Shown here: positions 21,822-21,865 of the stretch, piece after piece
Numbering within the stretch: the stretch's first letter is position 1
Layout: every line of letters begins with the position of its first letter
Source of the DNA: Jatrophihabitantaceae bacterium
GTDB lineage: Bacteria; Actinomycetota; Actinomycetes; Mycobacteriales; Jatrophihabitantaceae
Direction of reading: 5' to 3'
Assembly: GCA_035765515.1 (NCBI GenBank)
Contig: DASTXN010000171.1
Span: forward strand, 1,885 to 65,884
DNA: 64,000 bases
Translations under genes and position numbers: made by a program
The notes under the pieces: model-generated
The model's database searches: none
What the model was told of the DNA's origin: nothing
Seen by the model: the letters and a program-made list of their open reading frames with translations, nothing else

Positions 21822-21865
21822 GGCTGCGATTCGCCTGCGCTCGGCCTGCATCCGGCTCCTACGCT
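21822..21865 (+). promoter_or_regulatory. three direct heptamers G(G/C)CTGC(G/A) at exact 11-nt phasing plus a TACGCT -10-like hexamer (SARP-box-like promoter)
   Basis: Heptamers start at 21822, 21833 and 21844. TACGCT at 21860-21865 is 8-9 nt after the third repeat. RBS GAGGGAG at 21887-21893 and ATG at 21900. Confidence 0.45.

What the first reader, a model, noticed from the sequence alone, without database searches (positions are those of the whole stretch)
21822..21865. Triple 11-bp-phased heptamer repeat (SARP-box architecture) in the 84-nt gap between the SARP gene and the Big_1 gene
**Seen in the sequence.**
- GGCTGCG, GCCTGCG and GCCTGCA start at 21822, 21833 and 21844, exactly one helical turn apart.
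- A TANNNT-type hexamer TACGCT at 21860-21865 follows 8-9 nt after the last repeat.
- A GAGGGAG RBS and the ATG at 21900 come next.

**Established background.** SARPs such as ActII-ORF4, DnrI and AfsR bind direct heptamer repeats with 11-bp periodicity overlapping the -35 region, just upstream of the -10.

**Inference.** The adjacent SARP directly activates this promoter.
Basis: partly seen in the sequence, partly recalled or inferred. Interest (0 to 1): 0.6.

Follow-up and report, generated by a model that had tools for sequence, protein, structure and literature searches.

The report
SARP-box promoters flanking a large SARP gene
The three phased repeats are real and most likely form the binding site through which the neighbouring SARP-type activator switches on a giant secreted adhesin-like operon; this is a known kind of promoter, found here in an uncultured actinobacterium with no antibiotic gene cluster nearby.

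Summary
GGCTGCG, GCCTGCG and GCCTGCA start at 21822, 21833 and 21844, and TACGCT follows 9 nt later.

A phased triple alone is not rare: about 2 are expected per 64 kb. The full architecture is rare. CTGCR-N6-CTGCR-N9-TANNNT occurs exactly twice in the 3.79-Mb genome, and never at 19 other spacings or periods.
- One copy is the reported site.

Three metagenomic lineages of the locus support it (SARP protein 76-81% identical).
- The 29-nt repeat block and the -10 hexamer are invariant, and changes fall in the spacer.
- The intergenic region is 93-94% identical, against 61-83% at four-fold sites.

A 45%-identical SARP with nearly the same recognition helix carries two boxes of the same architecture, one again before a DUF1059 gene. 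Two more distant homologues have boxes of identical geometry but different cores (TTACG, TTGCG).

The geometry matches the AfsR afs box to within 1 bp. The regulator is a SARP-LAL type, like PimR.

Verdict: a real SARP-box promoter and a new member of a known kind.

The parts
18429..21815 (+). Large SARP regulator of SARP-LAL type, 1128 aa: OmpR-type wHTH, BTAD, AAA_16 P-loop ATPase and a helical, TPR-like C-terminal half with no LuxR HTH. GTG start.
   Evidence: Pfam BTAD scores 7e-25 and AAA_16 scores 2e-23. Trans_reg_C is weak at 0.056, and only weak TPR hits appear in the C-terminal half. EmbR 2FEZ matches at 7e-19 and AfsR 8HVR/8K60/8JKE also match. The start is supported by the orthologue alignment, where L027 has ATG at the same position.
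21822..21828 (+). DR1, GGCTGCG: an extra upstream repeat, at about -50 to -44 if +1 is 21872.
   Evidence: Sequence read. Invariant in 3 lineages. No equivalent third repeat exists at the other boxes of this type.
21833..21839 (+). DR2, GCCTGCG: at about -39 to -33, over the place of a -35 element.
   Evidence: No sigma-70-type -35/-10 pair was found.
21844..21850 (+). DR3, GCCTGCA: at about -28 to -22, 9 nt before the -10 hexamer.
   Evidence: In lineage L030 the last base is G, giving GCCTGCG.
21860..21865 (+). Candidate -10 hexamer TACGCT (TANNNT type). It is the only TANNNT in the gap. The predicted start is near G21872.
   Evidence: Sequence read. Invariant in 3 lineages while 21853-21855 just upstream vary. 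The start site itself is inferred, not measured.
21866..21899 (+). Leader with RBS GAGGGAG (21887-21893). It is almost invariant among lineages, as are the first 7 codons of the Big_1 gene.
   Evidence: The fold is no better than shuffles, z = +0.55. There is no Rfam match.
21900..26474 (+). Target gene 1: a 1524-aa secreted protein with 9 Big_1 and 6 Invasin_D3 domains.
   Evidence: Pfam scan. Orthologues of 89% and 70% identity sit in the same position after the SARP gene.
26491..28014 (+). Target gene 2: a 507-aa protein with no Pfam family, 17 nt after the Big_1 gene, so probably in the same operon.
   Evidence: Conserved gene order in L027 (499 aa) and L030 (467 aa).
28011..28451 (+). Target gene 3: a 146-aa protein overlapping the previous stop by 4 nt. 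Coordinates are inferred.
   Evidence: Its frame is open within the ORF 26874-28451. A 145-146-aa gene follows with a 4-nt overlap in L030 and in the Logan contig.
18297..18329 (-). Second SARP box and -10, read on the minus strand: GACTGCG atcc ACCTGCG ctccgcgcc TACCGT.
   Evidence: It is one of only two genome-wide hits of the composite pattern. It is the main conserved island of the divergent intergenic region in 3 lineages: the cores and the T-A---T of the -10 are kept while the spacer varies.
18062..18259 (-). Small DUF1059 gene (65 aa), divergent from the SARP gene and downstream of the second box.
   Evidence: Pfam DUF1059 scores 6e-5. Homologues hold the same position in L027 and L022. 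In the locus of the 45% SARP homologue the homologue again sits behind a CTGCR box.

Best explanation
The 84-nt gap holds a SARP-dependent promoter for the Big_1 operon.

**Proposed mechanism.**
- Protomers of the adjacent large SARP (18429-21815) bind side by side, through their OmpR-type winged helix, to the nnCTGCR repeats, which lie one helical turn apart.
- DR2 and DR3 occupy about -39 to -22, replacing a -35 element. DR1 adds a third, upstream site.
- The bound SARP recruits or adapts the housekeeping sigma-RNA polymerase onto the TACGCT -10 hexamer. Transcription would start near 21872 and run through the Big_1 gene and the two genes behind it.
- The same regulator drives a second promoter of identical geometry upstream of the divergent DUF1059 gene (18297-18329, minus strand).
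- The AAA_16 ATPase and the helical C-terminal half presumably gate activity by nucleotide binding or oligomerisation, as described for AfsR and PolY.

**Shown here.** The architecture, its uniqueness in the genome, its conservation, its recurrence next to homologous SARP genes, and the SARP identity of the protein.

**Inferred.** Binding by this protein, activation rather than repression, the sigma factor, the start site and the signal sensed.
For: 1. **Uniqueness.** CTGCR-N6-CTGCR-N9-TANNNT has 2 hits in 3.79 Mb, both flanking this SARP gene. It has 0 hits at 11 other spacers and 7 other periods. Allowing one mismatch adds no hit. Forty relatives give 1 hit in all.
2. **Footprint at the Big_1 promoter.** In 3 lineages the block 21821-21849 and TACGCT are invariant. 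The 9 variable columns lie at 21817-21820, 21850, 21853-21855, 21868 and 21892. The one indel lies upstream of DR1, so the phasing to the -10 is kept.
3. **Constraint.** Intergenic identity is 93-94%, against 61-83% at four-fold degenerate sites of the flanking genes. It is the best-conserved stretch in 3.7 kb.
4. **Footprint at the DUF1059 promoter.** The cores CTGCG...CCTGCG and TAsCGT are kept, while the 9-nt spacer and the rest of that intergenic region drift.
5. **Independent locus.** L024 carries a SARP that is 45% identical, with recognition helix EPSLRTLVSKVRALF against EPSLRALVSKVRALF here. It has two perfect hits in one 376-nt intergenic region. One precedes a DUF1059 gene; the other precedes the ECF-sigma and SARP genes.
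6. **Same geometry, different core, next to more distant homologues.** TTACG repeats lie between the paralogous SARP and a P450-like gene on contig C103 and are conserved in a same-genus genome. TTGCG repeats lie next to the P0008 SARP.
7. **Geometry as in AfsR.** Published SARP targets have repeats 11 or 22 bp apart with the 3' repeat 8 bp from the -10. The afs box spans -40 to -19, and each protomer contacts the first 8 bp of an 11-bp repeat (PMC10936776). With +1 at 21872, DR3 lies at -28 to -22.
8. **Protein identity.** EmbR and AfsR matches and the BTAD hit.
Against: - There are no expression, start-site or binding data.
- At the Big_1 promoter the whole gap, including the repeat spacers and the leader, is nearly invariant. 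Conservation there does not single out the repeats.
- Only three lineages exist in the collections searched, and one has four near-identical contigs.
- The composite pattern was refined after seeing the sites, so its statistics are partly post hoc. The second site was, however, found with a looser search built only from the first.
- One homologue locus (L035, 38%) shows no such box.
- The repeat core differs from the TCGAG-type cores of classical Streptomyces SARPs. (The TCGAG core is stated from my own knowledge; it did not occur in the review I searched.)
Confidence: 0.75

Rival explanations
1. The boxes are real operators, but a different regulator binds them. One candidate is an OmpR/PhoB-family response regulator, which also uses 11-bp direct repeats over the -35. 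Streptomyces PhoP shares the afs box with AfsR in this way. On this reading the neighbourhood with the SARP gene is incidental, or reflects co-regulation.
For: Direct repeats one helical turn apart over the -35 are not exclusive to SARPs. PhoP binds a region overlapping the AfsR site at afsS (PMC10972967). No binding data exist here.
Against: The boxes occur only next to SARP genes: both genome-wide hits here, both hits in L024, and the relaxed-pattern third hit next to the paralogous SARP. The repeat core changes together with the SARP homologue: CTGCR, TTACG, TTGCG. No response-regulator gene lies in the conserved part of the locus.
Confidence: 0.12
2. The conserved gap acts mainly at the RNA level, or as part of a SARP-Big_1 co-transcript. 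A leader structure, translational control or processing site would explain the conservation, and the DNA repeats would be a by-product.
For: The leader 21866-21899 and the first 21 coding nucleotides are as invariant as the repeats. A small hairpin (CGUC...GACG flanked by CCC/GGG) could cover part of the RBS. No terminator is predicted after the SARP gene.
Against: The predicted fold is no more stable than shuffled sequence, z = +0.55. The only double-sided change falls in a pair that is broken in the third lineage, so covariation gives no support. There is no Rfam match. An RNA model does not explain the same repeat and -10 arrangement on the opposite strand upstream of the DUF1059 gene, nor its recurrence at other loci. 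It may be true in addition for the leader part.
Confidence: 0.08
3. It is a chance GC-rich repeat with no function.
For: Generic 11-bp-phased triple heptamers are as common as triples at other non-codon periods, 119 per genome.
Against: The composite pattern is unique and occurs twice around one gene. It is conserved well above the synonymous-site level in three lineages. It recurs at a 45% homologue locus.
Confidence: 0.03

Closest known systems
AfsR and the afs box at the afsS promoter of Streptomyces coelicolor (cryo-EM structures 8HVR, 8K60, 8JKE; PMC10936776)
   Same: - Both are large SARPs with a wHTH-BTAD domain followed by an ATPase and a helical sensor half.
- Both sites are 11-bp direct repeats lying over a poor or absent -35 and ending about 6 bp before the -10.
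- With +1 at 21872, DR2 and DR3 lie at -39 to -22, against -40 to -19 for the afs box.
   Different: - The ATPase here is AAA_16 (LAL or cyclase type), not NB-ARC. Sequence similarity to AfsR stops shortly after the SARP domain, around residue 320 of this protein.
- The repeat core is nnCTGCR, against CGTT(T/C)ATCG for AfsR.
- The residues aligned to the base-contacting T88 and R92 of AfsR are A and K here (my own mapping from the alignment).
- There are three repeats here, and the targets are an adhesin-like operon and a DUF1059 gene rather than afsS.
SARP-LAL regulators PimR, SanG and FilR (review PMC10972967)
   Same: [quoted passage not shown]
- Relatives of this protein carry a Guanylate_cyc domain in place of the SARP domain.
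- The PimR operator is three heptamers with 4-nt spacers, and PimR also has a secondary operator with two repeats.
- PimR is a locally acting regulator with very few targets.
   Different: - The PimR repeats are reported not to overlap the -35. Here they would.
- PimR-type regulators sit in antibiotic gene clusters of Streptomyces. Here there is no biosynthetic cluster, and the host is an uncultured 3.8-Mb actinobacterial MAG.
Small pathway-specific SARPs ActII-ORF4, DnrI, FdmR1 and VlmI, with triple heptamer boxes
   Same: Three heptameric direct repeats at 11-bp spacing lie upstream of a -10 in the promoter of an adjacent target operon (PMC10972967).
   Different: Those are proteins of about 300 aa with no ATPase or sensor half. 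Their cores are of TCGAG type (from my own knowledge) and their targets are biosynthetic genes.

Membership tests
SARP family regulator (protein) | N-terminal OmpR-type winged-helix DNA-binding domain followed by a BTAD domain | tested here: met
   BTAD scores 7e-25. EmbR 2FEZ aligns over query residues 19-274 at 7e-19, covering both domains, and AfsR matches at 3e-9. Pfam Trans_reg_C alone is weak at 0.056.
SARP-LAL subclass (PimR, SanG, FilR) | C-terminal half with the P-loop ATPase of LAL or guanylate-cyclase-associated type, and no LuxR HTH | tested here: met
   AAA_16 scores 2e-23. There is no GerE or LuxR hit in the last 605 aa even at E<=1. TIGR03903 kinase/cyclase fusion gives a partial match at 2e-34. 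Full-length relatives carry PF00211 in place of BTAD. No direct comparison with PimR was possible.
SARP-box promoter (DNA) | Direct repeats separated by 11 bp (or 22 bp) | tested here: met
   Repeat starts are at 21822, 21833 and 21844. The period is kept in 3 lineages. Only period 11 gives hits.
SARP-box promoter (DNA) | The 3' repeat lies 8 bp from the -10 element | tested here: met
   There are 9 nt between GCCTGCA and TACGCT. This becomes 8 nt if the heptamer is read as CCTGCAT. The CTGCR-to-TANNNT distance is exactly 9 nt at all four CTGCR promoters, and only spacer 9 gives hits. The -10 itself is predicted, not mapped.
SARP-box promoter (DNA) | The box overlaps the -35 region of a promoter with a poor -35 | tested here: inconclusive
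   No sigma-70-type -35/-10 pair was found. The -35 position falls inside DR2 if +1 is about 21872. The start site is unknown.
SARP-box promoter (DNA) | Specific binding and activation by the cognate SARP | not testable with these tools
   The evidence is only indirect: exclusive co-location with SARP genes, and co-variation of the core with the homologue.
Cluster-situated antibiotic regulator | Located in and controlling a secondary-metabolite gene cluster | tested here: not met
   The neighbours are an MFS transporter, a TetR regulator, an SDR, a DUF1059 gene, a Big_1 adhesin-like protein, an RCC1/TIG giant and an ABC-F protein. No biosynthetic enzymes are present.

The most novel reading that the evidence does not exclude
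Large SARP-LAL regulators of uncultured actinobacteria, probably Acidimicrobiia, may form self-contained modules of regulator plus box. Each would have a fixed promoter geometry: two nnYTRCG-like repeats, then 9 nt, then TANNNT. The repeat core would co-vary with the recognition helix (CTGCR, TTACG, TTGCG). These modules would control cell-surface and other non-antibiotic genes, with the small DUF1059 protein as a conserved core target. If so, they give a readable specificity code for SARPs and show SARP functions outside secondary metabolism.
Probability: 0.35. Interest if true: 0.55.

Novelty: new member of a known kind. Interest (0 to 1): 0.42.

Why it matters
SARPs are studied almost only as switches of antibiotic gene clusters in Streptomyces. 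In this case the operator, the likely -10 and a two-promoter regulon can be read from sequence alone, in an uncultured small-genome actinobacterium. The targets are a giant secreted Ig-repeat protein operon and a DUF1059 gene, not a biosynthetic cluster.

It offers a cleanly testable pair of regulator and operator, with a core (nnCTGCR) distinct from known SARP boxes. Related loci have the same geometry with other cores. That could help work out how SARP recognition helices read DNA.

It does not change the known mechanism.

Tried and rejected
- **Orthologues in genome collections.** The genome-contig scan with the SARP found only a 31% hit. Forty relatives gave nothing above 33% over the full length.
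- **Metagenome scans.** Both scans of metagenome contigs found nothing: one with a protein alignment and one with a 26-nt leader pattern.
- **Fragment search.** A search with the C-terminal 350 aa, meant to catch short contigs, found nothing.
- **L022.** The end of this contig (81% lineage) is corrupted by C/G-rich errors. I discarded it for the Big_1 gap and used L030, from the same sample, instead.
- **Structured RNA or a terminator in the gap.** Not supported.
- **More regulon members.** I found none in the window or in the genome, even with one mismatch allowed.
- **Generic repeat scans of 19 homologue loci from relatives.** These gave two hits, about what chance would give. I accept only L007, which is the orthologue of the C103 box.
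- **Two contigs of interest came without DNA.** These were P0128 and the P0132 Big_1 homologue with a small SARP nearby.

Full report
**1. The observation**

The sequence reads exactly as reported.
- The stop codon of the upstream gene is at 21813-21815.
- GGCTGCG is at 21822-21828, GCCTGCG at 21833-21839 and GCCTGCA at 21844-21850.
- Nine nucleotides follow, then TACGCT at 21860-21865.
- GAGGGAG is at 21887-21893 and the ATG at 21900.

The specific triple (GSCTGC three times at 11-bp steps) occurs once in the window, against 0.01 expected. It occurs once in the 3.79-Mb genome assembly that holds the window.

The motif was chosen after it was seen, so I also counted any 11-bp-phased triple heptamer with at most two mismatches. 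There are 119 in the genome. That is no more than at periods 8, 10, 13 or 14, which give 75-103. A phased triple alone is therefore not remarkable: about two are expected per 64 kb. What needs explaining is the triple in this position and with this downstream hexamer.

**2. The genes**

*Upstream gene.* 18429-21815 encodes a 1128-aa protein.
- It has a BTAD domain (7e-25) and an AAA_16 ATPase (2e-23).
- Its first 274 residues align with the wHTH-BTAD of EmbR (2FEZ, 7e-19) and with AfsR (8HVR, 3e-9).
- The C-terminal 605 residues give only faint TPR hits and no LuxR HTH.
- Full-length relatives include proteins with a guanylate-cyclase domain in place of the SARP domain.
- This is the SARP-LAL make-up described for PimR, SanG and FilR (PMC10972967).

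*Downstream genes.* 21900-26474 encodes a 1524-aa protein with nine Big_1 and six Invasin_D3 domains. I read a signal peptide in its N-terminal sequence. Two further genes follow closely.

*Context.* No biosynthetic gene cluster is nearby. The genome is a 70% G+C MAG with 210 contigs, estimated 91% complete. The names of its nearest NCBI homologues suggest Acidimicrobiales, but I did not verify the taxonomy.

**3. Orthologous loci**

No orthologue exists in 40 related genomes, where the best match is 33% identical. The large protein collection holds two further lineages.
- One has a SARP 76% identical and a Big_1 protein 70% identical. It is represented by contigs L023, L027, L028 and L029.
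- The other has a SARP 81% identical and a Big_1 protein 89% identical. It is represented by L022 and L030, from one sample.
- The last ~110 nt of L022 are corrupted, so I used L030, which starts 177 nt before the ATG.

The gene order DUF1059 (minus strand) - SARP - 83/84-nt gap - Big_1 - ~500-aa gene - ~146-aa gene is kept, as far as each contig reaches.

In the three-lineage alignment of the gap:
- The 29 nt from 21821 to 21849 are invariant. They hold all three repeats and both 4-nt spacers.
- TACGCT is invariant.
- The nine variable columns are 21817, 21819, 21820, 21850, 21853-21855, 21868 and 21892.
- 21817-21820 lie just after the stop codon and include the only indel, which is upstream of DR1.
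- The change at 21850 (A to G) turns DR3 into GCCTGCG.
- 21853-21855 lie in the spacer between the box and the -10.

The gap is 93-94% identical between lineages. Four-fold degenerate sites of the two flanking genes are 61-83% identical. In a 3.7-kb alignment the gap is the best-conserved stretch. The region is therefore under strong constraint, and the changes fall where a box-plus-(-10) model allows them.

One caveat applies. The leader and the first seven codons are just as invariant, so at this promoter conservation does not single out the repeats.

**4. A second box, and uniqueness in the genome**

I scanned the orthologous contig L027 with a loose version of the repeat. This turned up GCCTGCG-atcc-ACCTGCG, then 9 nt, then TACCGT. 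It lies on the minus strand in the divergent region between the SARP gene and a small DUF1059 gene.

The window has the same element at 18297-18329: GACTGCG atcc ACCTGCG ctccgcgcc TACCGT. It lies upstream of the 65-aa DUF1059 gene at 18062-18259.

For the composite pattern CTGCR-N6-CTGCR-N9-TANNNT:

| Search | Hits |
|---|---|
| Window | 2, against 0.00 expected |
| Whole genome, both strands | 2 |
| Spacers 4-15 other than 9; periods 8-15 other than 11 | 0 |
| Whole genome, one mismatch allowed | no additional hits |
| 40 related genomes | 1 in all |
| Reversed-pattern control, all 41 genomes | 10 in all |

Both genome hits flank one SARP gene.

This second intergenic region is otherwise poorly conserved, so the footprint there is clearer. 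Read on the minus strand, the three lineages are:
- GACTGCGATCCACCTGCG-CTCCGCGCC-TACCGT
- GCCTGCGATCCACCTGCG-CGCCGCGCT-TACCGT
- ACCTGCGATCCGCCTGCG-CGGCGCGGT-TAGCGT

The CTGCG cores and the T, A and final T of the hexamer are kept. The flanking "nn" positions, the 9-nt spacer and a middle position of the hexamer vary.

**5. Independent loci**

*The next SARP relative, P0005.* It is 45% identical and sits in a different context, in loci L024-L026. Its recognition helix is almost the same: EPSLRTLVSKVRALF, against EPSLRALVSKVRALF here. Its 376-nt upstream region holds two perfect matches to the composite pattern.
- On the plus strand: TCCTGCA cttt CCCTGCG ctgccgacg TAGCGT, before an ECF-sigma gene that precedes the SARP gene.
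- On the minus strand: GCCTGCG ttct GACTGCA gcctggggc TAGATT, before an uncalled 57-aa DUF1059 gene (Pfam 1e-7).

*More distant homologues.* These show the same geometry with other cores.
- The 33% paralogue on contig C103 has GATTACG cctg CGTTACG acggatcac TACGTT. It lies in the 177-nt region between that paralogue and a divergent P450-like gene.
- The same box is kept in a genome of the same genus (L007).
- With the core relaxed to YTRCR, this is the only additional hit in the genome.
- The P0008 homologue has CGTTGCG aaat CTTTGCG cccggttcc TAGTCT, facing a divergent MalT-like gene.
- One homologue locus, L035, shows nothing comparable.

The relaxed pattern was written after seeing the C103 site, so its count is descriptive. 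Its position next to a SARP start codon is not.

**6. Mechanism**

Published SARP targets carry direct repeats 11 or 22 bp apart, with the 3' repeat 8 bp from the -10.

In the AfsR-RNA polymerase complex, two SARP protomers sit side by side on two 11-bp repeats spanning -40 to -19. Each contacts the first 8 bp of its repeat. They replace the sigma region 4 contact with the -35 (PMC10936776).

If TACGCT is taken as -12 to -7, +1 falls at G21872. DR3 then lies at -28 to -22, DR2 at -39 to -33 and DR1 at -50 to -44. This is the AfsR geometry to within one base pair, with one extra upstream repeat. Triple-repeat boxes are known for DnrI, ActII-ORF4 and PimR (PMC10972967).

No sigma-70-type -35/-10 pair exists in the gap. 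This fits a promoter that depends on an activator.

I therefore consider it most likely (about 0.75) that the adjacent SARP activates both promoters. I also consider its regulon, within the assembled 91% of the genome, limited to these two.

**7. Rivals**

- *Another repeat-binding regulator.* This cannot be excluded without binding data. It is disfavoured because the boxes occur only beside SARP genes and their cores change with the homologue.
- *An RNA-level element.* The fold is no better than shuffles (z = +0.55), there is no Rfam match and covariation gives no support. An RNA model also cannot explain the minus-strand copy. It could still account for the unexplained invariance of the leader.
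- *Chance.* This is excluded for practical purposes.

**8. Limits**

- Only three lineages are available.
- The pattern statistics are partly post hoc.
- The sigma factor and the signal sensed are unknown.

**9. Verdict**

It extends to a second promoter and to a recurrent architecture among related SARP-LAL genes. The finding is a new member of a known kind. Its interest is moderate, and comes from the non-antibiotic targets, the uncultured host and the testable specificity pattern.

Noticed in passing
G000 contig C103 (locus L037 3894-3926, + strand): A box of the same geometry with a different core: GATTACG cctg CGTTACG acggatcac TACGTT. It lies in the 177-nt region between the paralogous large SARP (L037 559-3876, minus strand) and a divergent P450-like gene (4054-5460). 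The same box is conserved in a same-genus genome (L007).
   Followed up: partly
L036 about 7950-7988 (- strand): CGTTGCG aaat CTTTGCG cccggttcc TAGTCT lies between a MalT-like LuxR gene (5210-7870, minus strand) and the P0008 SARP gene (8001-11564). The geometry is the same and the core is TTGCG.
   Followed up: no
L032 (G037:C4:1117482-1117512, - strand): This is the only CTGCR composite hit in 40 relatives. It sits 6 nt before the GTG start of a Ser/Thr protein kinase fused to a solute-binding domain, so that transcript may be leaderless. It lies about 10 kb from a large SARP homologue.
   Followed up: partly
window 21866-21920: The leader and the first seven codons of the Big_1 gene (MAYRLRK) are identical at the nucleotide level in three lineages, apart from 21868 and 21892. 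From codon 8 on the gene diverges quickly. A small hairpin could cover part of the RBS. The cause of this constraint is unexplained.
   Followed up: partly
contig of P0132 (no DNA held): A 38%-identical Big_1/Invasin_D3 giant in another metagenome has a small SARP (253 aa, BTAD) and a sortase within 3 kb upstream. The pairing of SARP-type regulators with this adhesin-like family may therefore be wider.
   Followed up: no
L022 4460-4568: The last ~110 nt of this JGI contig are degraded into C/G-rich errors. The protein tail reads SRGASPPQRAPPPGGPPP. The overlapping contig L030, from the same sample, gives the clean sequence.
   Followed up: yes
window 18330-18428: In the divergent region a TTGAC block (about 18363-18367) and the RBS-like GGCAGGG (about 18414-18420) before the SARP start are conserved in three lineages. 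They probably belong to the SARP gene's own promoter and RBS. There is no CTGCR box on the plus strand here. This contrasts with L024, where a box precedes the sigma and SARP genes.
   Followed up: no
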